A stretch of 64,000 bases of DNA from Heteronotia binoei. Taxonomy: Eukaryota. Within the stretch, counting starts at the first letter, position 1; the number at the start of each line of letters is the position of its first letter. The stretch is taken from contig NC_083223.1 in the NCBI RefSeq assembly GCF_032191835.1, positions 20,212,001 to 20,276,000 of the forward strand. Direction: 5' to 3'. Below the pieces are notes generated by a model. The model did no database searches and was not told the origin of the DNA. It was given only the letters and a program-made list of their open reading frames with translations. Made by a program: the position numbers and the translations under genes. Shown one piece after another: positions 7,625-45,440 of this stretch.

Positions 7625-8888
7625 CACGGCAGGCCCTCCCATTAGGCAAATTAGGCATTTGACTAGGGCGCCAGCCCTGGGGAGGGGAGCTGAATTGGGC
7701 ACCCTCCACTCATAGATGCCTTCCCCGCTCTCGTGCTGGCTTCCTCGCTTTCCTGCCACCTTTCTCTCTCTCACGCTGGCTCTCCTGCTGCCTTTCTCCT
7801 GCTTGTCCCTGGCTCTCGTGCTTTCCTGCCGTCTTTCTCCTGTTTGCCCCCGGGTCTCTTGCTTTCCTGCCACCTTTCTCCTGCTTGTCCCTGGCTCTCT
7901 TGCTTTCCTGCTGTCTTTCTCATGCTTGCCCCTGGCTCTCTCACTGTCCTGCCATCTTTCTTCTGCTTGCCCCTGGGTCTCTCGCTTTCCTGCTACCTTT
8001 CTCCTGCTTGCTCCAGCTCTCTCGCTTTCCTGATGCTTTTCTCCTGCTCACCCCAGCTCTCTCGCTTCCCTGATGCCTTTCTCCTGCTTGCTCCAGCTCT
8101 CTCGCTTTCCTGATGCCTTTCTCCTGCTTGCTCCTGCTCTCTCACTACCTGATGCCTTTCTCCTGCTCACCCCAGCTCTCTCGCTTTCCTGATGCCTTTC
8201 TCCTGCTTGCTCCGGCTCTCTCGCTTTCCTGATGCCTTTCTCCTGCTCACCCCAGCTCTCTTGCTTTCCTGATGCCTTTCTCCTGCTTGCTCCAGCTCTC
8301 TCGCTTTCCTGATGCCTTTCTCCTGCTTGCTCCAGCTCTCTCACTTTCCTGATGCCTTTCTCCTGCTTGCTCTGGCTCTCTCGCTTTCCTGATGCCTTTC
8401 TCCTGCTTGCTCCAGCTCTCTCGCTTTCCTGATGCCTTTCTCCTGCTCACCCCAGCTCTCTTGCTTTCCTGATGCCTTTCTCCTGCTTGCTCCAGCTCTC
8501 TCACTTTCCTGATGCCTTTCTCCTGCTTGCTCTGGCTCTCTCGCTTTCCTGATGCCTTTCTCCTGCTTGCTCCAGCTCTCTCGCTTTCCTGATGCCTTTC
8601 TCCTGCTCACCCCAGCTCTCTTGCTTTCCTGATGCCTTTCTCCTGCTTGCTCCAGCTCTCTCACTTTCATGATGCCTTTCTCCTGCTCCCCCCAGCTCTC
8701 TCGCTTTCCTGATGCCTTTCTCCTGCTTGCTCCGGCTCTCTCACTTTTCTGCCGCCTTTCTCCCATTCCCGCCTCCATCTTGCCTTCCTCGCTGTGTGGG
8801 CGGTAGGGTGCAGTGTTTGGGGCAGCGCCGAGGCAGGTAGCAGGCGGTGGGCTTGCCTAGGGTGCTGCACGTCATAGGACTGGCCCTG
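7625..8888 (+). mobile_element. Non-autonomous hAT element containing an expanded minisatellite
   Basis: Perfect 8-bp TSD GGTGTGAG; ends resemble the element at 28467-29197. Confidence 0.82.
7724..8765. repeat. 40-bp minisatellite, about 26 units (CCAGCTCTCTCGCTTTCCTGATGCCTTTCTCCTGCTTGCT)
   Basis: 40-bp periodicity visible in the line columns; variant units recur in 4-5-mer blocks. Confidence 0.95.
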
Positions 8889-17928: not shown

Positions 17929-18025
17929 CTGCCGGACAAAGCACAGAGATGGTTAATGGGAGTCTGCTTACAATTATTATTTTTAAAAACCAAAACCTTT
18001 ATGATTGCCACAGAAAGGGGATCTG

Positions 18026-18416
18026 TAAGAACATAAGAGAAGCCATGTTAGATCAGGCCAATGGCCCATCCAGTCCAACACTCTGTGTCACACAGTGGCC
18101 AAAAAAAATTATATATATATATATATATATACACACAAATATATATACACAAATATATATACACACATATATATACACACACACACACACACTGTGGCTA
18201 ATAGCCACTGATGGACCTCTGCTCCATATTTTTATCTAACCCCCTCTTGAAGGTGGCTATGCTTGTGGCCACCACCACCTCCTGTGGCAGTGAATTCCAC
18301 ATGTTAATCACCCTTTGGGTGAAGAAGTACTTCCTTTTATCCGTTTTACCCTGTCTGCTCAGCAATTTCATTGAATGCCCACGAGTTCTTGTATAGTGAG
18401 AAAGGGAGAAAAGTAC
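18026..18416 (-). mobile_element. CR1 LINE 3' fragment with a (TA)n/(CA)n microsatellite
   Basis: Same tail as 14755-15048. Confidence 0.88.
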
Positions 18417-18488
18417 TTCTGTCTTTCAAGGAGACCTGAAGATTTTACACCAAAGTGCCTAGGAACTATATTTTTAGAAAGGTATAAA

Positions 18489-18669
18489 CAGGGCGTTTTT
18501 TTGTAGCAGGAACTCCTTTGCATATTAGGCCACACACTCCTGATGTAGCCAATCCTCCAAGAGCTTGCAGGGCTCTTAGTACAGGGCCTACTGTAAGCTC
18601 CAGGAGGATTGGCTACATCAGGGGGTGTGGCCTAATATGCAAAGGAGTTCCTGCTACAAAAAAGCCCTG
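18489..18669. mobile_element. Palindromic hAT MITE
   Basis: Perfect TSD GGTATAAA. Confidence 0.9.
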
Positions 18670-19307
18670 GGTATAAACTCTGTTGAGGCTTTTGAGCATC
18701 AGGGAGATTCGAATCTTTGTGACAAGCAGTGTCATACAAACAGAGAATCTTCAAGAGCACTTTGTATGTAGTTTGAGGAAAATATCTCCTGCCCACTTCC
18801 TCCCTCGGGAGTTTTCAGCAGCCAACTGTGTGAAGTCAGGAGAGTAATATGATGTGTGCCTGAAAATGCACATGGGTTCACTCAAGGCTTGGTCTGGCCA
18901 ATCTGGGGAAGTCTACTCGAGACTGGTTGATGAGGAGGTGTGCCCTCTGCGTGCACAAGCCCAAGAAGGGGAAGTGGTGTTGTGAAAGAACCATTTGTTC
19001 CACATGATTGTGAAGGTTAATGTGTTCCACAATCACCATCAATCTGAGAGGCGGAAAGGCCTGCGTGCCTCAGCTCAGTGTAGGCAGGCAAAGAGGAAGT
19101 GGGCAAGGGTGGTGGTGTGCTGGCTACTGTGGTAGGTGACAAAACCTAACTGTGACTTGTGTTCTTTTCACAGTTTACACAGAGGATTGGCTTGCTGGTA
19201 GGTGACCAAAGCCTCAGGGGAATCATGGGACTCCTGGTTCCAGTGGATTATGGGTAAAGACAGGTTGCTTACCTGTAACTGTAGATCTTCGAGTGGTCAT
19301 CTGTGCA

Positions 19308-19458
19308 TTCACACTCATGGGGATAGTGCGCCTGCGCCGATCCCCGAATCGGTATCTGCAAAAGCCCGGGATTTTTTCGCGCTCGGCGCCACCAGGCATG
19401 CGCAGGCGACCCACTGCGCATGCCCACCGGCGCCCGCGCGGCAATCCCGCCAGTTCCT
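19308..19458 (+). repeat. DIRS 3' ITR core (151 bp)
   Basis: Exact reverse complement of 24875-25025. Confidence 0.95.
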
Positions 19459-19524
19459 CCCTGACCGCTGAAAGCCCCTTTCTGGAGAGAGAGAGACCGT
19501 CAGCAGCGGGGAAGGAGGGCGGGT

Positions 19525-19618
19525 AGTGTGAATGCACAGATGACCACTCGAAGATCTACAGTTACAGGTAAGCAACCTGTCTATCTTCTTCGTGGTCTCT
19601 GTGCTTCACACTCATGGG
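19525..19618 (+). repeat. DIRS internal complementary region (ICR)
   Basis: 19525-19582 is the reverse complement of 19258-19315; 19583-19618 is the reverse complement of 25012-25047. Confidence 0.95.
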
Positions 19619-19657
19619 AGATTAGCAAGCAAAGCATACCTGGAGGCGGGAAGACGG

Positions 19658-22480
19658 TCAGCCTGAAGACACAGCCTGTAGCACCGCAGCTCCCAACCGA
19701 GTCCTCTGCTGAGCATGCACTTCCAGCGCGTAGTGCTTCATGAAGGCATGCGGAGAAGACCAGGTAGCCGCCTTGCAGACATCAGAAAGGGACACACCTT
19801 TCAGGAATGCCACCGACGTGGCCATCGCCCTAGTGGAGTGTCCACGCACAGGTCCAGGTAACGGCTTTTTAGCCAACAGATAACAAAGTTTGATCGTCTC
19901 AGTAAGCCACTTGGAAAGTCTTTGAGACGAAATCTTGGACCCTAACTTGGGGGCAGAGTAGGAGACAAAAAGCTGGTTATCCTTACGAAAACCCCTTGAA
20001 CGGTTTAAATAAAATAGGAGGGCACGCTTAACATCCAGTGCATGTAGCCTCCGTTCCTCGTCCGAGGAAGGACTAGGGTAAAAAGTGGGTAACCAAACTT
20101 CTAAGTTAAGGTGAAACTGGGAAACCACTTTCGGGAGAAAAGTAATGTCCGGGGCCAAAGAAACTCCGGCCTCCCTAAAGGCAAGGTATGGGTAGTCACA
20201 CCGCATCGCTGTGAGCTCCCCCGCACGACGTGCTGACGTGATGGCAACTAAAAATGCAGTCTTCCAGGACAAGAGCTGCAGGGAACATGTTGCCATGGGT
20301 TCAAAGGGACGGCGAGTTAACTTGTCCAAAACCAAAGTCAGGTCCCACAACTGTGGAGGGGATCTAGAGGGGGGATGAAGCCGGAACAGGCCCTTTAAAA
20401 ATCTTTTGGAATGCGGGTGTGCAAAAACAGAGTAACCCTCGACCGAAACATGGAAGGCAGAAATAGCTGCCAAATAAACCTTGATGGAGGAAAAAACTAA
20501 CCCCTCATCGATCAAAGACAAAAGAAACTCAAAAATTGCCGGGAGTCCAACCGAGTTGGGTGGCACAAGAGAGTCAGCCATGAAGTCACTGAACTTCTTC
20601 CACTTCCTCTCATAAGAGGCACGGGTGGAAGGTTTCCTGCTACTCTGGAGCACCTGCTGAACCCTGGTGGAAAAGTCTAGTGGTCGATGAACCACGCTGT
20701 CAGCTTCAGGTGCGGCACGTTGTGATGGAGCACGTGTCCGCCCTGGGCCGACAACAGGTCCGGTTCCGCCGGGAACTGGTAAAAGATCCCCTTCGACTGC
20801 TGGAGCAGAATCGGGAACCAGCTCTGACGGGGCCACCACGGGGTCACCAGAATGCATCGTGGTCTCTCCTGCACTAACTTGTGGACCACTCTCGTCAGCA
20901 GAGGTAAGGGTGGGAACATGTACAGGAACCAACCCTCCCACTGAAAAAGGAGTCCGTCTCCCAGGGAAGTCGGGTCCGCACCCCCCCTGGCACAGAACAA
21001 GGGGCACTTCTTGTTCCACGCTGTGGCGAAAACATCTAGCTGCGGATAGCCCCAAAGTTGGAATACTGGTTCCAGGAACTTCCACTGCAGTTCCCATTCG
21101 TGTGGGGATGCTGCACCCCTGCTGAGAGAGTCCGCCTGTACGTTGAGGACCCCAGGCAGATGCGTAGCCTTCACAAAAATGTCCCACTGGAGGCACTCCC
21201 TCCAGAGATCTAATGCCAGTGAGCATAGCCTGCGAGACACTGTCCCTCCCTGCCTGTTTATATAACACATGGCAGTGGTGTTGTCCGTCAGTAATGCCAC
21301 GGTCTTCCCCGCTAACAGAGGGCGGAAGGATCGAAGGGCAAAGTGGACCGCCAGCAGTTCCAGGTAATTTATGTGGTACTGGCCGAGTTTCAGTGGCCAC
21401 TTGCCCCCCACACATAAGTCCTCCAGATGAGCTCCCCACCCCCACATGGAAGCATCGGTGGCGATGGTCACGGAAGGGGTTGGTAGATGAAAGGGAGCCC
21501 CTTGGCAGATGTTGCTCTCCGACCCCCACCATTGCAGGGATTGAAGAGCCTCGGATGGGATGGTGAACCTCTTCCGAGGTGAGTCTCTGAGGGGGCGAAA
21601 ATGGCGCAAGAACCATAGCTGTAGGCCCCTCATGTGCAGTCTTGCAAAGCGCAGCACGCTCGTCGTCGCAGCCATCAGTCCCAGCATCCGCTGGATCTGT
21701 TGTGCTGTGCCCCATTGTCGCCTTTGGAGAAGCTGTACCAGAGTCATGATGTCCCTTGCTCTCTGAGCGGGAAGAAACGCTCTGTGCTGATCCGTGTCCA
21801 ACAGAGCCCCTATGAATTGAACTGTCTTTGACGGGGTGAGATGAGACTTCTCCACGTTGACCTGCAACCCCAGGGTGCCGAGAAGACGCAGAGTAATGGC
21901 GATGTGAGAAGTTAAACTCTCCCTCGACTTCGCTACAAGAAGCCAGTCGTCGATGTACGGAAAAACAACGACTCCCTGAAGGCGAAGATGAGCAGCCACC
22001 ACACTCATCAGCTTCGTGAACACCCGAGGAGCAGTAGACAGTCCAAACGGCAGGGCCCTGAATTGGAAGTGACGAGCACCCACTGCAAATCGTAGGAAAC
22101 GCCTGAACGCGGGATGGATGCTGACATGAAAGTAAGCATCCCTGAGGTCCAGGGTCGCCATCCAATCCCCCTGATTGATGAGGGGCAGGATCGTTTGCAG
22201 TGTAGCCATTCTGAACTTCTGGTATAGAATGAATTTGTTCAGACCCCGCAAGTCCATGATAGGTCGTAGACCCCCGTCCCTTTTGGGAACCAGAAAGTAG
22301 CGGGAGTAGAAACCTCCCACCCTGGTCTCCGGTGGAACAACCTCTATGGCTTGTTTCTGTAGGAGGTTGCTCACCTCCGCCAGCAGAGGTGGGGAAGGGG
22401 GAGTGGTAACTACCACGGACTGGTTTGGGGTCTGGATAAACTCTATCTTGTAGCCCTCTTGAATAATGGACAGAGCCCAC
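19658..22480 (-). CDS. DIRS tyrosine recombinase ORF (940 codons from GTG; N-terminal about 600 codons overlap RT in another frame)
   Basis: TSARRAGEL, HSTRAMATS, AATWSS...FMKHY catalytic motifs in the C-terminal part. Confidence 0.93.
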   Translation of the reverse strand: MGSVHYSRGLQDRVYPDPKPVRGSYHSPFPTSAGGGEQPPTETSHRGCSTGDQGGRFLLPLLSGSQKGRGSTTYHGLAGSEQIHSIPEVQNGYTANDPAPHQSGGLDGDPGPQGCLLSCQHPSRVQAFPTICSGCSSLPIQGPAVWTVYCSSGVHEADECGGCSSSPSGSRCFSVHRRLASCSEVEGEFNFSHRHYSASSRHPGVAGQRGEVSSHPVKDSSIHRGSVGHGSAQSVSSRSESKGHHDSGTASPKATMGHSTTDPADAGTDGCDDERAALCKTAHEGPTAMVLAPFSPPQRLTSEEVHHPIRGSSIPAMVGVGEQHLPRGSLSSTNPFRDHRHRCFHVGVGSSSGGLMCGGQVATETRPVPHKLPGTAGGPLCPSILPPSVSGEDRGITDGQHHCHVLYKQAGRDSVSQAMLTGIRSLEGVPPVGHFCEGYASAWGPQRTGGLSQQGCSIPTRMGTAVEVPGTSIPTLGLSAARCFRHSVEQEVPLVLCQGGCGPDFPGRRTPFSVGGLVPVHVPTLTSADESGPQVSAGETTMHSGDPVVAPSELVPDSAPAVEGDLLPVPGGTGPVVGPGRTRAPSQRAAPEADSVVHRPLDFSTRVQQVLQSSRKPSTRASYERKWKKFSDFMADSLVPPNSVGLPAIFEFLLSLIDEGLVFSSIKVYLAAISAFHVSVEGYSVFAHPHSKRFLKGLFRLHPPSRSPPQLWDLTLVLDKLTRRPFEPMATCSLQLLSWKTAFLVAITSARRAGELTAMRCDYPYLAFREAGVSLAPDITFLPKVVSQFHLNLEVWLPTFYPSPSSDEERRLHALDVKRALLFYLNRSRGFRKDNQLFVSYSAPKLGSKISSQRLSKWLTETIKLCYLLAKKPLPGPVRGHSTRAMATSVAFLKGVSLSDVCKAATWSSPHAFMKHYALEVHAQQRTRLGAAVLQAVSSG

Positions 22481-22860
22481 CTGTCTGTGGAGATCAACTC
22501 CCAGGCAGGCAGGAAAGGGCGTAGGCGAATGGAATGGTCGACAGTGGGGGCGATGACGCGTGCTTGCGGGAAGTCAAACCCCCTGCTTCTGTGGCCGAGC
22601 CCCCTTAGATTTATTAGAAGGCTGGCCCCCATAACGGTTTCTGCCGTTGCCGGAGTAGGGTGGCCGTTCAGGTTGCTGCGAGCGAGGACGCCACTGCTCA
22701 GGGGAGAACTTCTGATAGGGCTTCTTGGTCCAAGGTTTGGACCATTGTTTTGACTTCGGAGACTTGGAGGAAGGTTGGACCCCCAAGTTTCTGGATGTCT
22801 TGACACTCTTGTCAAACTCTTGCAGCGCCGTGTCGGTCGTAGTGCTGAAGAGCCCGTCAC
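20677..22860 (-). CDS. DIRS RT-RNase H-methyltransferase-like ORF (727 codons; first ATG at 22632 in gttATGg context)
   Basis: RALPFGLSTAPRVFTK, YIDD, RNase H TDAS-WGWG / NYLELLA / TDN, C-terminal DVFA...YMFPP. Confidence 0.95.
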   Translation of the reverse strand: MTGSSALRPTRRCKSLTRVSRHPETWGSNLPPSLRSQNNGPNLGPRSPIRSSPLSSGVLARSNLNGHPTPATAETVMGASLLINLRGLGHRSRGFDFPQARVIAPTVDHSIRLRPFLPAWELISTDRWALSIIQEGYKIEFIQTPNQSVVVTTPPSPPLLAEVSNLLQKQAIEVVPPETRVGGFYSRYFLVPKRDGGLRPIMDLRGLNKFILYQKFRMATLQTILPLINQGDWMATLDLRDAYFHVSIHPAFRRFLRFAVGARHFQFRALPFGLSTAPRVFTKLMSVVAAHLRLQGVVVFPYIDDWLLVAKSRESLTSHIAITLRLLGTLGLQVNVEKSHLTPSKTVQFIGALLDTDQHRAFLPAQRARDIMTLVQLLQRRQWGTAQQIQRMLGLMAATTSVLRFARLHMRGLQLWFLRHFRPLRDSPRKRFTIPSEALQSLQWWGSESNICQGAPFHLPTPSVTIATDASMWGWGAHLEDLCVGGKWPLKLGQYHINYLELLAVHFALRSFRPLLAGKTVALLTDNTTAMCYINRQGGTVSRRLCSLALDLWRECLQWDIFVKATHLPGVLNVQADSLSRGAASPHEWELQWKFLEPVFQLWGYPQLDVFATAWNKKCPLFCARGGADPTSLGDGLLFQWEGWFLYMFPPLPLLTRVVHKLVQERPRCILVTPWWPRQSWFPILLQQSKGIFYQFPAEPDLLSAQGGHVLHHNVPHLKLTAWFIDH

Positions 22861-24613
22861 CCTCGAAGGGTAAGTCCTCGATAAAGGTCTTGGTGTCTTG
22901 GTGCAGTGCCGTCGACCTGAGCCAGGAGTGTCGCCTGATGCAAACTGCCGATGTAATGGCTTTGGCTGAGGCTTCCACCATATGTTTCGCTGCAGCCAGT
23001 TGCTGTCTGGCTACAGCGAGACCTTCCTTTTGCAATTTCATTGCCGCCGTCTTCTTGTCCTCACTTAGTGAAGAGAGGAAGGGGGAAAGCTGTTCCCACA
23101 CGGCATACTGGTACCTAGCCATGCAGGCTGCATAGTTAGATACCTTGATGCCGAGTGCCCCCGCTGAATAGACCTTGCGGCCCATCCCGTCGATTTTCCT
23201 ACCCTCCTTGTCCGGTGGGGAGGAGTGCACCTTCCTTGGCTTCGAGGAGGAGGAGACCACCACAGAATTCGGACGTGGGTGGGTGAACAGAAATTCAGCA
23301 CCTGCCTCCTGAACCCTGTACATATGGTCCAGGCGTTTGGAGGAAACGGGTGTCGAGGAAGGCTTCTTCCAAGATTCTTTGATGGCCTGAAGAATCACCT
23401 TGGTGACTGGAAGGGCCACCGCAGTGGACGTGTTCCTCTGCATTATATCGAACACGTTGTCATCCACTACGGGTTCCGGTTGGGTCACAGGCAGTCTGAG
23501 GGTGGAAGCGATGCGCCTCACGAGGTCGCCATAGGATTTTAGGTCTTCCGACGGCGAGATCGGAAGATCCTCCGCCGTGTTGGAACCAGGTGAGGGTTCC
23601 AGATCAGGGATCTCACTGTCCGACTCCGATGACGAGGAGTCACGCTGAGTGGAATGCTCGGAGAGCCTCGGTGTCGACGCTCGCGGTTGAAGTTGTACCG
23701 ACGATAGTCTTGGAGGAGCTTCGACCGGGACTAGCTGTCGATCCGGGGGGACCGACGCCGACGCCTTTCGGGAGTGATGCGAGACCCTCGACATCGCAGA
23801 AAACTCCGAAGCTTGCTCCCAGTCTTGGTAGTCCTCCGGGTACCACCGACAGGATTCGTATCTGGAGTAGGGAGGCTGCCACCGCCGTTGCTCCCATGGT
23901 GGTATTGGGAAGCGTTGCGGGGTGTAGGATAGGTCCCGTCTGGGTCGGGGCTTGAAGGGCGGGTCTACGACCGGTGCCGAAGCGTCTACCCCCGACGTCG
24001 ATCCGCTGCTCGACCGACGCCGTGAGCCTGAGGATGAAGACCGTTGGGTGAGGTCAATTTCCGGCTCCTGCTCCGACGCCGACAGGCGTTGTTGGGCTGT
24101 TGGGCTCCTGCGCGGAGAGACCCGAATCGATTTCGGCGGTTTTGCCGACGTCGATGCGCCTTCCGACGGAGAAGGAGTGCGGGGTCGCTTGCGCTTCTCC
24201 TTCGATTTCGCCTTTTTCGGAGCTCGGGTCCCCGAGTCCTCTCGGCGTTTTGTAGCGGGCGCATCCACCGAACCCTCGTGGGGACGCTTCGTGGAGCCAC
24301 GCTCTTCCGGCAATTCCAAAGTCAGAATCGGAGCAGCATCGGCCGATGCAAGCTCCTGTGCCGGGGTGTCGGTCGACTTCGGTGCCGAAACCTCCATCGG
24401 TCGATGAGGTCGAAGCGCCGATTCGGTGAGCGCTGCCGATAATCGAGCCGCACGGTTCTTCCTGGTCTGTTTCGAGAACCGAAGGCAGTGCGGGCACGAC
24501 TCAACTCTGTGCGCCTCCCCCAAACACAGCAGGCACAGGGAATGTCCGTCGGGAGGGGCAATCTTCCTCCCACAAGCCCGGCAGCGCTTAAAAAACCCCC
24601 AGCGACTTTCCAT
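22574..24613 (-). CDS. DIRS ORF1 Gag-like, 679 aa (N-terminal Cys/His finger; C-terminal LAP2alpha-like region)
   Basis: CRACG...HSLCLLCLGEAH...CPHC motif; uninterrupted ATG-to-TGA ORF. Confidence 0.9.
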   Translation of the reverse strand: MESRWGFFKRCRACGRKIAPPDGHSLCLLCLGEAHRVESCPHCLRFSKQTRKNRAARLSAALTESALRPHRPMEVSAPKSTDTPAQELASADAAPILTLELPEERGSTKRPHEGSVDAPATKRREDSGTRAPKKAKSKEKRKRPRTPSPSEGASTSAKPPKSIRVSPRRSPTAQQRLSASEQEPEIDLTQRSSSSGSRRRSSSGSTSGVDASAPVVDPPFKPRPRRDLSYTPQRFPIPPWEQRRWQPPYSRYESCRWYPEDYQDWEQASEFSAMSRVSHHSRKASASVPPDRQLVPVEAPPRLSSVQLQPRASTPRLSEHSTQRDSSSSESDSEIPDLEPSPGSNTAEDLPISPSEDLKSYGDLVRRIASTLRLPVTQPEPVVDDNVFDIMQRNTSTAVALPVTKVILQAIKESWKKPSSTPVSSKRLDHMYRVQEAGAEFLFTHPRPNSVVVSSSSKPRKVHSSPPDKEGRKIDGMGRKVYSAGALGIKVSNYAACMARYQYAVWEQLSPFLSSLSEDKKTAAMKLQKEGLAVARQQLAAAKHMVEASAKAITSAVCIRRHSWLRSTALHQDTKTFIEDLPFEGDGLFSTTTDTALQEFDKSVKTSRNLGVQPSSKSPKSKQWSKPWTKKPYQKFSPEQWRPRSQQPERPPYSGNGRNRYGGQPSNKSKGARPQKQGV

Positions 24614-24874
24614 AAGCGGTCGCGCGGGAAAAATTTTTCCTTCTGCTCAGAAACGCCTGAGAGAAAGGGGGGTAAAAACGGAAATGGACCACCCCAAAGG
24701 GCGATCCGCCGGACAACAAAGAAAACGCTTCTTCTTTTTTTTTTTTTTTACTAACTATCACTAATAACTAGCTAACTAACTATTTACAAGACCAAACGGG
24801 CTGGAACGAGAGAAAAAATCGCTCTCACCGACCGGAGAATCAGAAAGGGAACCTCTCTAGCGCAGCGGTCAGAA

Positions 24875-25025
24875 AGGAACTGGCGGGATTGCCGCGCGGG
24901 CGCCGGTGGGCATGCGCAGTGGGTCGCCTGCGCATGCCTGGTGGCGCCGAGCGCGAAAAAATCCCGGGCTTTTGCAGATACCGATTCGGGGATCGGCGCA
25001 GGCGCACTATCCCCATGAGTGTGAA
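24875..25025 (-). repeat. DIRS 5' ITR core (151 bp)
   Basis: Exact reverse complement of 19308-19458 by eye. Confidence 0.95.
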
Positions 25026-25515
25026 GCACAGAGACCACGAAGAAGATTGGGAGAAACCAGTGTGATGTCTTCCAATATGCCAACAGCGCCACCTGGTTAG
25101 GAGGAGGAGACTGAAGTTCTGCTTTGGACATGACCCAGAGGAGGCACCATGTTTCAAGTGAAGGGGCTTGTGCCGCAGGTTTTGGGACCCCATGGCGTCG
25201 GCTTGGCCTCAGACTGCAGCAATTGCCACCACAGACCAGCTCCCCGGCTGAGTGGACCTTGCCAGAATCACAGGGGCTCCTAGTTGGCAGTGGCTTGCCA
25301 GGAACTCTCCTGGTAAGCAAAAGGACCAGCTTACGCATAGATGTTCGTATGACTCCGCTCCGCACTTTTCAAAGAAGAACCTTTGCTTCTTTTGCCTGAA
25401 ACTCACTTTAAAGATAAATGAAAGGTCGCCTCATTATATCTTTTCTGAGGACAGGCAAGGACAGCAAAATTGAAAAACAACAACAACAGCACAAAAGCAA
25501 GGTCAACAGTATTAC

Positions 25516-40836: not shown

Positions 40837-40952
40837 CGGGGAAGTGGGGAAGCGATTGGTTAAGGCTTCCTTTTTGTCAGAATCCCACTGGCAGCTCACC
40901 CTCCCTACCCTCTGTGTGTTTCAAAGTGTGCCTTGTCTAAACGTCTGGTGCC

Positions 40953-42915
40953 ATGGGTGGAATTCAGTCAAAAACTTCGCTAGAATATATGTGTAAGAAT
41001 TTTAAGGAACATTTCTGTGATGATTACGGAGTCAAACTGACTCCTGAAACTCTGAAAGCGTTATGTCAGAAAGACTGGGTGGCCTTACATGTAGAATGGC
41101 CGCCTGAGGGTAGCTTTGACCAAGGCTTGGTTCACCGAGTTTATAAAAGCATGTTACAGACCCCGACTTGTGAAAGTCAGTTTCCCTACAGTGATAGTTG
41201 GGCAGCTACGGTGCAGAAGTCCTACTGGTGGCCAAAGAAATTACAGAGCAAGAAGAAAAAGTGGGCTCAGAGGGCCGCTGATGAAGCTGCAAGTCAAGTT
41301 ATGGCTTTGCGCCAGGTTGTGTTAGTAAAAACAACGATCCCTCCAAAGAAGGGAAAGCCTCCAGTGTTAGATGCCGATCCGGAAGACCCTTTGGCTAGTC
41401 CCCCGCCATATGTTCCAGTATACCTTCTTCTCCCGATGCAGCCAGCTGAAGAAGGTCCTGAGGCAGCAGAAGGAGATACTGATGGCAAGGATCAAGCGCA
41501 GGTAGCTAAGGGCGCTTTAAAATCCTTTGATGAAGCGAGCCAGGAAATAGAGATGAATGAGGGAGCTAGAGCTGGAAAAAGGCGAGCGACACCCCTGCGA
41601 ACTCTAAATTCGGTTCAGCAGTTGTTTTCAGAGCAACTGTTTTTTGCAACAGCTCCTCATTACTCCACACCTGTGTTTAATAGTCAGAGGTTGGCTGCAA
41701 GTTTTAATTCACCCCCTGAGCCTCCCCTGCATACAGAACTCTCAACAAGTACTGAGAAAACTTCCAGTTCTTCTACGGCTTCACCCCCAACTTTTCCAGG
41801 TTTTACATCCAGCACAGTGGGCTCACTGCTAGCTCCTCTGATATGGGGAAGCCCATATCAACAGAGACCCGATACATGTATATGTCTTTCACTTCAAGTG
41901 AACTAATAAACTGGAAAACCCATACTGTTGCATTTTCTGACAATCCTGCCCCAATGACAAATCTGCTAACCAGTATTATGGCTACACATCAGCCTACCTA
42001 TGCAGACTGTCAGCAGCTTTTACTGCCCCTCTTCACAACTGAGGAGAGAAGCCGTATCCTGCCTCATGCTCAAAAACATGTAGAAGGAAAAGTTCCTCAG
42101 GGAACTGCAGATAGAGAGGAGTGGATAAAGGCCCGTTTTCCTGCAACAGATCCAAATTGGGACCCCAATTCTCAGATTTCCAAAGAGCATCTACCAGAAT
42201 ATAGGCAGGCAATCTTAGAAGGGATGAAAAAAGTAGGCAAGAAGCCCATTAATATAACTAAAGTCAGCGAAGTACTCCAGAAAATAGATGAAAGCTCTGG
42301 AACTTTTGCTGAGCTCATGATGCAGGCATTTCAAATGTACACTCCATTCGATCCTGAGGCTGCAGAGAACTTGCGCATGGTAAATACAACTTTTGTTGCT
42401 CAATCCTATGCTGACATTCGCAAAAAGCTTCAGAAGCAAGATGGCTTTGCTGGCATGAATTTATCCCAACTGTTAGAGATTGCCCAGAAAGTTTATGCCA
42501 ATCGGGATGTAGACCAGAAGCGGGAGGCAGAAAGAAAGATGAAAAAGAAGGCTGATTTGTTGGCAGCAGCTTTGGCTGGGCAGCCACCTATAAGAGGCAG
42601 AGGGGCTGCTCGAGGGCAAGGAATGAATGGCAGAAATCAAAGAATGGAGATGACCAATGTAGATCCAAACCAGTGTGCGTTTTGTAAGGATTTTAGGCAC
42701 TGGAAAGATTCATGCCTGAATCGACCCTCCCCCCTCCGCACTCAAGAAATTCAAAACGCTCCTAGACAGATGACAGGACTGAGTGTAAAGGCCGAGGCAG
42801 CAGAGGAGCCAGAGCGAGGGGAAGAGGAAGAGGACAAGTCCAGAATGGCAGATATTGGAGGAATGAAGAAGAGCCTTTCCAGGGCTTGGTTGGGCTGGAA
42901 AGATGGGATGACTAG
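40953..42915 (+). pseudogene. gag: ERV gag, frameshifted
   Basis: MGG start, WPPEGSFD matrix motif, PPPY late domain, capsid LINWKTH...FSDNP, knuckle CAFCKDFRHWKDSC, amber TAG at 42913. Confidence 0.9.
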
Positions 42916-45440
42916 GACAGACCGGGCACCGACAGTCCTGACCCTGCGGAGCCTATGGTCACAGTTGATGTGGAGGGTCTGGAGATCGCATTCCTTGTGG
43001 ATACTGGGGCTGCACGATCTGTTGTGCCCGATAAGATTGCTCCTTCAATTTGCAAGTGTATTAATATAATTGGAGCTACAGGGCGTAGACAATTCAGACC
43101 ATTTCTAGCCAAACAAATTTGTACAGTAGGAGGCCATATGGTCCGTCACAATTTTTTCCATTTGCCTGATTGCCCAGTGCCGCTGATGGGAAGAGATTTG
43201 CTTTCCAAGTTAAGACCCCAATTGACTTTTGAATCAGAACGTCAAATGAACTTTGAACTGCCTTATATAACCTCAGAAGGCAAATTACATTATGAAGGTG
43301 CATATGTTTTAGAATGCCCCCGAGGAGTGGAGGCTTTACCAATCAGCTCCTGTAATGGCCGTCAGAAGTCTGGGTTCAACAATTTCCAGATGTATGGGCA
43401 GAAGAGAACCCGCCTGGGCTAGCAGTAAACCATACGCCTATTAAGGTAGAATTAATCCCAGAGGCCGTTCCAGTCCGAGAACTCCAGTACCCGATCCCTA
43501 AGAAGGCAGTAGCTGGCATCCAGAAACACCTTGAGAGGCTTCTTGAATATGGAATTCGTGTAGAATGTCAGTCTCCACGGAACAGTCCCCTTTTGCCAGT
43601 CCAGAAGCCAGGCAGCGATGATTACAGACCAGTACAAGATTTACGATCTATTAATTCTTGCACACAGACTTTGCATCCTGTCGTTCCAAACCCATATGTC
43701 TTACTGGGACTTATACCTGCCTCAGCCACTTACTTCTCAGTGGTAGATCTCAAGGATGCGTTCTTTTGGTAAGACTGGCACCTGAAAGTCAGTCACTGTT
43801 TGCCTTCCAGTGGGAAAAAAAAGAGACTGGTAGAAAGCTAAAATATACATGGACCCGTTTACCCCAGGGGTTCGAAAATTCGCCCACCCTTGTTGGCAAT
43901 GCCCTCAGTAAGGACTTGAGACGGTTCCCAACTGGGCCAGGAGAAGCTGTGTGTCTTCAATACGTTGATGATATTCAGATGGGGTCAAAGACTTACAGAC
44001 TGGCCAAGGTGCCACTGCTGCCCTTCTAACACTTCTGACTGAGGCTGGGTATAAAGTGTCTCGGAAGAAAGCTCAGCTATGCCAAGAGACAGTGAAATTT
44101 TTAGGCTTCCATATATCCCAGGGCAGATGGCAGCTAGGCAGGGAGTGAAAAGAGTCTGTGTGTGCCATTCCTGTGCCCACTACCAGGCGCCAGCTGAGAG
44201 AATTCTTAGGAGCAGCAGGGTTCTGCGGAATTTGGTTCCCCAATTTTGCCATAACAGCTAAGCCCTCATATGAAGCCACTAAGGGGGGAGAAAAGCACCT
44301 TTTAAATGGACAGAGCAATGTCAAAATGCCTTTGAAGCCTTAAAACGCCAGCTCATGCAGGCCCCAGCTCTGGGACTACCTGATACTGACAAGCTCTGAA
44401 CCCAGCCTCTTTGTTGCCAATTCCTGATGATGCGCTGGAGCACGATTGCTTAGAAGTTATGGAAGAAATATTCTCCAGCTGGCCAGATCTGAAAAATGCC
44501 CCATTTTCAGATCCTGATATTGAATATTATACCGATGAGAGTAGCTTTATCCAGGATGGGAAGCGCAGAGCAGGATATGCAGCAGTCACTCTAGAAACAG
44601 TGACAGAAGCAGAACCGCTGCCTGTTTCAACCTCTGCACAGAAAGCTGAGTTAATTGCCCTCCTCAGAGCACTCCGGTTAGCAGAGGGACTTAAAGTAAA
44701 TAGTTACACAGACTCTAAATATGCTTTCATGATGCTGCATGCCCATGGAGCCCTATACAAAGAGAGAGGCTTAATTACTGCGAGTGGCAAAGGAATTAAA
44801 AATGGTAAAGAGATTTTGGAGATGTTAAAAGCTGTCTGGGCACCCCGGCACATAGCTGTCATCCATTGCCAGGGCCATCAGAAGCCCCTTAGTCTGGTAG
44901 CAAGAGGAAATTGGAAGGCAGATTTAACAGCTAAGGGGACAGCACTAAAGCCTTATCAGGGAAGCACAGAAATTCTGCCTGTTTTTCAAGTGTCCTTAAC
45001 CAAATGGAGTTCTCGGTATTCACTAGCTGAGGAGCAGTGGTTTCAAACTAAAGGGGCAGTAACCAAATGAAGGGATGGCTGGTATGTTCTCCCTGATGGC
45101 AGAATTTATATTCCAGAAGCTGTCGCATGTACATTAATTCAGAATCTGCAGGAGGGAACACATTATGGAAAGACTGCGCTAGAACACTCTGTGAGTCAGT
45201 GGCCATATATTAATCCTGTGAGTTCACCGAAAGCCCAAGCCTCTGCACAATGTGTTACATATGCAAAGAATAATCCAAGGTTGGGTCCCACTCAACTCCC
45301 AGGGAGTCAGCCAGTGGGAGCAACACCTTTCTCCTCCCTAGTTATGGATTTCACTGAGATGCCCAAAGCTGGACATTACCGTTACATGCTTGTATTTGTT
45401 TGTATGATGTCTGGATGGATTGAAGCTTACCCCACACACA
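42916..45440 (+). pseudogene. pol: ERV pro-pol (protease, RT, RNase H, truncated integrase), disrupted
   Basis: FLVDTGA; LPQGFENSP; YVDD; YYTDESS / SAQKAELIAL / YTDSKYAF; MDFTEMP...WIEAYP, then truncation. Confidence 0.92.

What the first reader, a model, noticed from the sequence alone, without database searches (positions are those of the whole stretch)
19258..25047. Complete, apparently transposition-competent DIRS1 element in a collagen intron
All three ORFs are free of stops and frameshifts, and the catalytic motifs are intact (YIDD; RNase H TDAS/E/D; YR R...HxxR...Y). The 151-bp ITRs are identical, the ICR matches both termini perfectly, and the gag region is CpG-rich while the neighbouring ERV shows CpG decay. 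These indicate very recent insertion. It is sense to the host gene, whereas the older ERV, both solo LTRs and the L1 are antisense, consistent with not yet having been filtered by selection.
Basis: partly seen in the sequence, partly recalled or inferred. Interest (0 to 1): 0.7.

Follow-up and report, generated by a model that had tools for sequence, protein, structure and literature searches.

The report
Young intact DIRS1 retrotransposon in collagen
This is a complete, recently inserted jumping gene of a known kind, one of about two dozen near-identical copies in this reptile genome, and its family's ends show that it lands at one fixed point without copying or matching the target DNA, likely by swapping a single DNA strand.

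Summary
The anatomy is confirmed. This is a 5,790-bp DIRS1-like element with three open frames, intact catalytic motifs, identical 151-bp ITR cores and a perfect 94-bp ICR. It lies sense-oriented in a COL4A1 intron. It is young: the nearest copies differ at 7 of about 5,400 bases. It is not special: 24 copies share its subfamily marker, about 900 termini match exactly, and roughly 140 copies are probably intact (extrapolated). Competence is unproven. The copy has a private Asp-to-Glu change three residues after the catalytic tyrosine; RNA runs showed no reads of this copy; polymorphism was untestable. The orientation argument rests on one insertion. The family's junctions are more informative. 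Insertion is precise at (A)G^WT with no duplication. The circle junction (T^AT) does not match the usual target (G^TT), and reciprocal products are nearly absent. This contradicts the identical-triplet model here and fits integron-like single-strand exchange (about 45%), although the recombinase is Cre-like. The scan noted similar junction behaviour before in other genomes. A single conserved TGA likely controls both pol (+1 frame) and recombinase (readthrough) expression; this is untested.

The parts
19258..25047 (-). Complete DIRS1-like tyrosine-recombinase retrotransposon, 5,790 bp
   Evidence: ends fixed by 25 other copies with unrelated flanks
24863..25047 (-). Left terminus and left ITR (151-bp core 24875-25025; first 36 nt complementary to the ICR). 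Has one extra G in both ITRs, shared only with copy L003
24657..24828 (-). Candidate 5'-UTR intron: G|GTGAG donor (first intron base 24828) and pyrimidine-rich CAG acceptor (last base 24657), 43 nt before the gag ATG; contains this copy's private 10-nt deletion. Inferred, not seen in RNA
   Evidence: donor-like motif in 68 of 86 and acceptor-like motif in 75 of 86 full-length copies; deletion
22574..24613 (-). ORF1, gag-like (N-terminal Cys/His cluster, LAP2alpha domain), ending in TGA
22570..22579 (-). Conserved NTT-TGA-CT gag stop: ORF3 continues in the same frame, pol in the +1 frame; candidate dual recoding site
   Evidence: kept in 76 of 86 full-length copies
20677..23010 (-). ORF2 pol: RT (YIDD), RNase H (TDAS/E/D), methyltransferase-like tail; no conserved start codon
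   Evidence: Met upstream of the gag stop in 3 of 9 subfamily representatives
19658..22573 (-). ORF3, 971 aa: about 630 codons overlapping pol, then a Cre-like tyrosine recombinase (about 19658-20695; R783, H912, R915, Y948; private Glu at 951)
19525..19618 (-). Internal complementary region, exact mirror of the end-to-end (circle) junction
19258..19470 (-). Right ITR (core 19308-19458) and right extension (19258-19307), with an invariant CAG|GTAAGC splice-donor-like motif
19252..19257 (-). 3' host flank, begins TT (family rule); with the 5' flank 25048-25053 it gives an A^TT target and no duplication
17929..25515 (-). Host intron of the collagen IV alpha-1 gene that holds the element (1,797 bp without it)

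Best explanation
This is a complete DIRS1-like retrotransposon, one of 24 copies of a young subfamily, in an intron of the collagen IV alpha-1 gene; it likely arrived within the last few hundred thousand years, and its own tyrosine recombinase likely inserted it by exchanging a single DNA strand at a fixed point in a short G/A^TT target. Shown from sequence: anatomy; youth relative to sister copies; one fixed crossover; no target duplication or loss; a target preference (A)G^(T>A)T that mostly does not match the element's own T^AT junction; near absence of reciprocal junctions. Inferred: RNA is reverse-transcribed, the ICR restores and splints both ends (established for Dictyostelium DIRS-1), and the 94-bp ICR:junction duplex within the single-stranded cDNA serves as the recombination site. 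The recombinase would then swap one strand and host replication would resolve the joint (about 45% for this step). Also inferred (about 40%): Gag ends at a leaky TGA that allows +1 shifting into pol and readthrough into the recombinase. The confidence figure is for the identity, the youth and the single fixed homology-free crossover.
For: Anatomy. Copies: 21 other full-length copies at 98.9-99.6% with unrelated flanks; 24 exact hits of a subfamily-diagnostic 36-mer; 19 of 22 young copies have all three frames open. Age: 3 private changes in the 5.4-kb body, 0.2-0.6 Myr at assumed rates of 1-3e-9 per site per year. Right junctions: 827 end in TT, 24 in T plus another base; 61 of 73 further hits are AT, and 36 of 40 fetched from that list are true termini. 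Left flank: G at -1 in 51 of 69, A at -2 in 37 of 69; duplication of 2-4 bases in 1 of 69, of 5-6 bases in 0. Empty sites: where flanks lie in other repeats, the two flanks align to paralogues without gap at 90-96% identity (L017, L069, L073, L099, L110, L116, L118, L125, L129). Left junctions keep the element's A in 583 against 4. Searches for host bases inside either end found at most 6 of 44, 1 of 18 and 1 of 23 candidates. The same homogeneity test was used to show single cleavage by integron integrase, whose genomic consensus is G^WT (10.1101/2022.09.11.507474, passages). DIRS-1 cDNA is single-stranded and mostly linear, and needs the ICR (PMC7192593, passages). ORF3 over pol has 0 stops against 11.7-18.3 expected from synonymous shuffles, minimum 4-7 in 2,000, in 5 subfamilies.
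Against: The recombinase is Cre-like, not integron-like. The profile hits Cre at E 3e-7 and no IntI. The model (pLDDT 93) matches Cre best (Foldseek TM 0.68; Z 20.3, rmsd 3.8, 304 aligned) and IntI lower (Z 15.5, rmsd 4.7, 267 aligned). Cre normally exchanges both strands (own knowledge). Uniform junctions could also come from strand-biased repair. No RNA support for this copy: 33, 160 and 42 reads among about 10 million each, mostly at termini, mostly 95-99% alike, none on the unique intron flanks, no joints. The contigs of run X1 carry 0 of 40 listed alleles of sister L002, so they come from another lineage. No stable RNA structure follows the gag stop (z -1.0, -1.6, -0.1), and the pol frame is no better conserved just after the stop than before it (0.49 vs 0.49). 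The mutation rate is assumed.
Confidence: 0.85

Rival explanations
1. Same element, but integration follows the published model: a double-stranded circle recombines with an identical 3-bp genomic sequence, leaving the triplet at both ends.
For: Stated model in PMC3266345 and PMC7192593 (passages); the +2 T is shared by donor and nearly all targets; about 60-80 insertions do have the matching AT.
Against: Left triplet GAT in 50 of 69 and right triplet TTT in 69 of 69, against a TAT junction (43 of these were chosen on TT, 26 were not). Genome-wide the mismatching TT outnumbers the matching AT about tenfold. Table 3 of PMC3266345 itself lists lizard, frog and pufferfish elements whose end triplet differs from the junction.
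Confidence: 0.1
2. A double-stranded circle and two strand exchanges are used, but mismatched overlap DNA is always repaired toward the same strand, or a host nuclease resolves the junction without branch migration, giving the same uniform ends.
For: The recombinase fold is closest to Cre; the Tn1549 integrase, of a group that tolerates mismatched overlaps (own knowledge), is also similar (Z 16.0).
Against: Mismatch-tolerant integrases normally leave both outcomes after replication (own knowledge); here reciprocal ends are under 1% of junctions.
Confidence: 0.35
3. The family is active but this copy is a dead end: its private changes (Glu next to the catalytic Tyr, Pro in gag, 10-nt UTR deletion) or silencing stop it from producing offspring.
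For: Private changes; Asp in 76 of 77 scored copies; no descendant on its branch of the tree; no matching RNA.
Against: The change is conservative and Glu occurs in 4 of 98 homologues; all catalytic residues and cis signals are intact; DIRS-1 RT works in trans (PMC7192593, passage); some private differences could be assembly errors.
Confidence: 0.3
4. The near-identical copies are artefacts of assembly, segmental duplication or gene conversion rather than recent transposition.
For: One pair in the sample (L084/L085) is a segmental duplicate with shared flanks.
Against: The 26 best copies have unrelated flanks on many contigs, precise ends and private mutations.
Confidence: 0.02

Closest known systems
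DIRS1-like retrotransposons of tetrapods (Anolis AcDIRS1/AcDIRS2, Xenopus DIRS-like families; PMC3266345 section 10; 10.1101/2021.08.05.455354 passages)
   Same: Size about 5.8-6 kb; ITR with conserved core and right extension; ICR halves 36+58 (Anolis 40+58 and 39+60); LAP2alpha-type gag; RT/RNase H/MT; long pol-YR overlap; hundreds of copies (775 detected in Anolis).
   Different: A separate family: YR 50-60% identical to lizard and turtle homologues among full-length hits. The junction triplet does not match the target, which those papers treat as identical in general.
DIRS-1 of Dictyostelium discoideum (PMC7192593, passages)
   Same: ICR mirrors the end-to-end junction; insertion into own kind occurs (L017 sits in an older DIRS 3' end).
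   Different: Dispersed over all large contigs, not centromere-clustered; no experimental cDNA data here.
Integron integrase IntI1 insertion at genomic attG sites (10.1101/2022.09.11.507474, passages)
   Same: Works like it: G^WT consensus, one fixed crossover, homogeneous junctions, likely a folded single-stranded donor.
   Different: Not a member: eukaryotic retroelement, recombinase closer to Cre than to IntI, donor duplex would be a perfect 94-bp ICR pairing and not an attC hairpin with extrahelical bases.
Cre recombinase
   Same: Best sequence-profile and fold match of the YR domain.
   Different: 14-17% identity; no palindromic lox-like target and no sign of spacer homology at insertion sites.

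Membership tests
DIRS1-like superfamily (order DIRS) | gag-like ORF1 | tested here: met
   679-aa ORF with LAP2alpha, E 4e-6
DIRS1-like superfamily (order DIRS) | RT and RNase H | tested here: met
   RVT_1 E 1.6e-24, RT_RNaseH E 4.8e-7; motifs
DIRS1-like superfamily (order DIRS) | Methyltransferase-like domain after RNase H | tested here: inconclusive
   Expected position and DVFAT...YMFPP motifs, but Pfam Dam only E 0.24, below cut-off
DIRS1-like superfamily (order DIRS) | Tyrosine recombinase instead of DDE integrase | tested here: met
   R, HxxR, Y present; profile and fold match Cre
DIRS1-like superfamily (order DIRS) | Inverted terminal repeats with right extension (not split direct repeats) | tested here: met
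DIRS1-like superfamily (order DIRS) | ICR complementary to both termini | tested here: met
   94 of 94 bases
DIRS1-like superfamily (order DIRS) | No target-site duplication | tested here: met
Published DIRS1 integration model (a mechanism claim, with listed exceptions; not used as a membership criterion) | Identical trinucleotide at circle junction, target and both ends | tested here: not met
   T^AT junction against G^TT targets
Currently active element | Transcript, cDNA or polymorphic insertion of this copy | tested here: inconclusive
   RNA runs from another lineage, low depth, no flank reads; no DNA run of the same population was offered
Integron integrase system | IntI-type recombinase | tested here: not met
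   Cre ranks above IntI by profile and fold
Integron integrase system | Single-strand exchange at G^WT | tested here: inconclusive
   Target consensus and junction homogeneity match; strand cleavage itself cannot be seen in sequence

The most novel reading that the evidence does not exclude
Vertebrate DIRS1 elements integrate like integron cassettes with a Cre-like enzyme: the single-stranded cDNA folds its ICR onto the end-to-end junction, the recombinase swaps one strand at G^WT with no homology, and replication finishes the job. One shifty, leaky TGA (NTT-TGA-CT) makes Gag, Gag-Pol (+1 shift) and Gag-recombinase (readthrough) from one RNA. This family, with about 900 scorable junctions and roughly 140 intact copies, would be a natural vertebrate system to test it.
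Probability: 0.3. Interest if true: 0.72.

Novelty: new member of a known kind. Interest (0 to 1): 0.38.

Why it matters
The single insertion matters little: intact young DIRS1 copies are common in this genome and the superfamily is known in lizards and frogs. The family data bear on two open points. The specificity of the DIRS recombinase had not been tested experimentally as of PMC7192593, and the junction counts here argue against the identical-triplet model and give a concrete substrate and cut site to assay. How startless pol and recombinase frames are translated is also open. If the conserved acceptor 860 bases downstream of a COL4A1 exon captures host splicing, this allele could also be a natural collagen IV mutation, but that is untested.

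Tried and rejected
Expression and presence/absence: the run search offered no DNA run holding the locus (best share 0.20). One usable lay gave no flank reads, no joints and no empty site, so it says nothing for or against polymorphism. Spliced-RNA-derived copies, as reported for Ngaro elements by earlier scan notes: 18 short copies had unrelated breakpoints and no shared GT-AG boundary, so there is no support. RNA structure behind the gag stop: none significant. A conserved start codon for the recombinase: none upstream of the SAM-like domain in all 10 representatives (best 9 of 10). ITR identity as a clock: too short; 4 of 49 broken copies also have identical ITR cores. A family-wide test of sense/antisense bias was dropped: no gene annotation, and flank strand skew would be underpowered. 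Rows dropped before the flank counts: L044 (non-canonical 5' start) and L085 (duplicate of L084); loci whose 5' end lay outside the fetched stretch gave no 5' flank. Literature searches found no paper on DIRS in geckos with recombinase data, on a DIRS-integron parallel, or on recoding at the DIRS gag stop. The library lacks the Goodwin/Poulter and Poulter/Butler papers (seen only as citations or quotes), so absence from print is not shown. No supplements were read; Additional File 3 of PMC3266345 may bear on junction annotation. PMC6681497 and PMC13003380 (passages) added nothing on DIRS1 target choice.
Full report
Observation. The ITR cores are identical over 151 bp, and the 94-bp ICR is the exact mirror of the joined ends. 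CpG observed/expected is 0.79 against 0.35 in the ERV and 0.25 elsewhere. The host exons are Gly-X-Y on the minus strand. The NC1 domain downstream matches collagen alpha-1(IV) best, so the element lies sense in a COL4A1 intron (17929-25515). The named homologues of the recombinase come from lizards, turtles, amphibians and fish; that the host is a squamate reptile is my inference.

Family context. A DNA search of G000 scored 26 of 6,206 candidates and returned 21 other full-length copies at 98.9-99.6%, one at 97% and three at 95%, all with unrelated flanks. A 36-mer diagnostic for the young group occurs 24 times. The exact 3' terminus followed by TT occurs 827 times. I fetched 60 of the first 63 such termini on contig C1 (the other 3 were already held). 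They form a radiation at about 72-95% identity that shares the same ends. 11 of the 63 have all three frames intact, which extrapolates to roughly 140 intact copies. Intact copies exist in at least five subfamilies. An intact DIRS1 is therefore ordinary in this genome.

Age and competence. Outside the low-complexity UTR the window copy differs from its nearest sisters at 7 of about 5,400 bases, with 3 private changes in the body. At assumed rates of 1-3e-9 per site per year this gives 0.2-0.6 Myr (95% range 0.04-1.6), an upper bound because RT errors add to it. Some sisters are younger (2 differences). The private changes are Ala to Pro in gag, one change silent in pol, and Asp to Glu three residues after the catalytic Tyr. 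Asp is present in 76 of 77 scored copies; Glu occurs in 4 of 98 homologues. There is also a 10-nt UTR deletion. An extra G sits in both ITRs, as in L003, which fits both ITRs being copied from one template. RNA runs under a coded species label gave few reads, mostly terminal and 95-99% alike, none on the unique intron flanks and no joints. Their alleles do not belong to this subfamily (0 of 40 in L002). Expression and polymorphism of this copy remain open.

Orientation. The ERV is antisense; the other three elements were not checked. One sense insertion cannot show absence of selection. There is a plausible cost to sense insertion: a conserved pyrimidine-rich acceptor lies 43 nt before the gag ATG (75 of 86 copies) behind a conserved GTGAG donor (68 of 86), about 860 bases downstream of a COL4A1 donor, and one AATAAA lies in gag. 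This is inference only.

Integration. The ICR defines the donor junction as ...CTGTCT^ATCTTC.... Right junctions read TT in 827 cases, T plus another base in 24, and AT in 61 of 73 further hits, of which 36 of 40 fetched were true termini. About 20 more ATC targets appear. The left flank has G at -1 in 51 of 69 and A at -2 in 37 of 69; position +4 is a pyrimidine in 78 of 85; there is no duplication. Where an insertion sits in another repeat, its flanks align to intact paralogues without gap (nine cases at 90-96% identity among 99 tested, most of which had no paralogue in the DNA held), so TT comes from the host and nothing is gained or lost. The published model needs an identical triplet in donor and target (PMC3266345 and PMC7192593, passages). 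Here most targets mismatch the donor at -1 and +1. Staggered two-strand exchange across such mismatches should leave reciprocal junctions. Left ends keep the element's A in 583 against 4. Of 44 left-end-like hits without that A, 21 are 3-nt slips, 17 are single substitutions and at most 6 could hold host bases. Of 18 right-end hits without the last T, one could; of 23 ATC hits, one could. All these patterns need exact inner matches, so decayed copies are not counted.

Mechanism. One fixed, homology-free crossover at (A)G^WT is shown. Integron integrase inserts single-stranded cassettes at G^WT and was shown to cut once by the same homogeneity argument (10.1101/2022.09.11.507474, passages). DIRS-1 cDNA is single-stranded, mostly linear and ICR-dependent (PMC7192593, passages). 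In such a cDNA the ICR would pair with the joined ends as a perfect 94-bp duplex, and cutting its second strand would break the element. I therefore favour single-strand exchange resolved by replication (about 45%), ahead of two-strand exchange with biased repair (about 35%) and the identical-triplet model (about 10%). Against it, the enzyme is Cre-like by profile and fold (Z 20.3 for Cre, 15.5 for IntI). I wrote this idea down before reading earlier scan notes, which report fixed-point insertion without target matching for DIRS, and folded-strand models for Ngaro and Crypton, in other genomes. Those notes are not independent support.

Translation. Gag and the 971-aa ORF3 share a frame across one TGA, and pol is +1. 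The context NTT-TGA-CT is kept in 76 of 86 copies, and in the 75% subfamilies it reads CTT-TGA-C, the bacterial RF2 shift site as I recall it. The ORF3 frame over pol has no stop where synonymous shuffles give 11.7-18.3, so it is kept open. Neither pol nor the recombinase has a conserved ATG. Long overlaps are known in about half of DIRS1 elements (PMC3266345 section 10). Dual recoding at this stop is my best guess (about 40%); no downstream structure supports it, and deleted copies show no splice signature.

Verdict. This is a new member of the known DIRS1-like superfamily, meeting every structural criterion tested except a weak methyltransferase score. It is young, probably but not demonstrably competent, and unremarkable as a single copy. 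The family-wide junction pattern is the part worth follow-up. Interest 0.38.

Noticed in passing
window 22570-22579 and homologous sites in L002-L130: Conserved NTT-TGA-CT gag stop with pol in +1 and the recombinase ORF in frame; ORF3 kept free of stops over about 630 pol codons. Candidate dual recoding site.
   Followed up: partly
window 24657-24828: Candidate 5'-UTR intron conserved across subfamilies; its acceptor is sense to COL4A1 and could trap host splicing.
   Followed up: partly
window 19269-19277 and 19563-19571: Invariant CAG|GTAAGC splice-donor-like motif in the 3' terminus and, mirrored, in the ICR; role unknown.
   Followed up: no
L017 flanks; L037; L055; L092; L096; L106; L114: DIRS copies sit inside or directly beside other DIRS ends; L017 is inserted at AG^TT in an older 3' terminus.
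   Followed up: partly
L099, L102, L110 3' flanks: Three copies of different length and identity have the same or nearly the same target in another repeat (TTGG^ATGTATGCC): a hotspot or shared ancestry.
   Followed up: no
one search hits, e.g. G000:C2:75104819; L044: 21 of 44 variant ends or ICRs lack one TTC unit; a 3-nt slip that may pass from ICR to terminus.
   Followed up: no
window 20680-21120: Methyltransferase-like pol tail with FPP in place of the usual (D/N)PPY motif (recalled); may be catalytically altered.
   Followed up: partly
window 40941-45070 (+): Decayed ERV with Gag_MA, Gag_p30, protease and RNase H pieces in different frames, antisense to COL4A1.
   Followed up: partly
window 18500-18660: About 160-bp MITE-like element with 36-bp perfect terminal inverted repeats; similar sequences recur in the window.
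   Followed up: no
window 7715-8763: Tandem array of about 40-bp units inside a COL4A1 intron.
   Followed up: no
L084 / L085: Two copies with the same flanks 530 kb apart on C1: segmental duplication or assembly duplicate.
   Followed up: no
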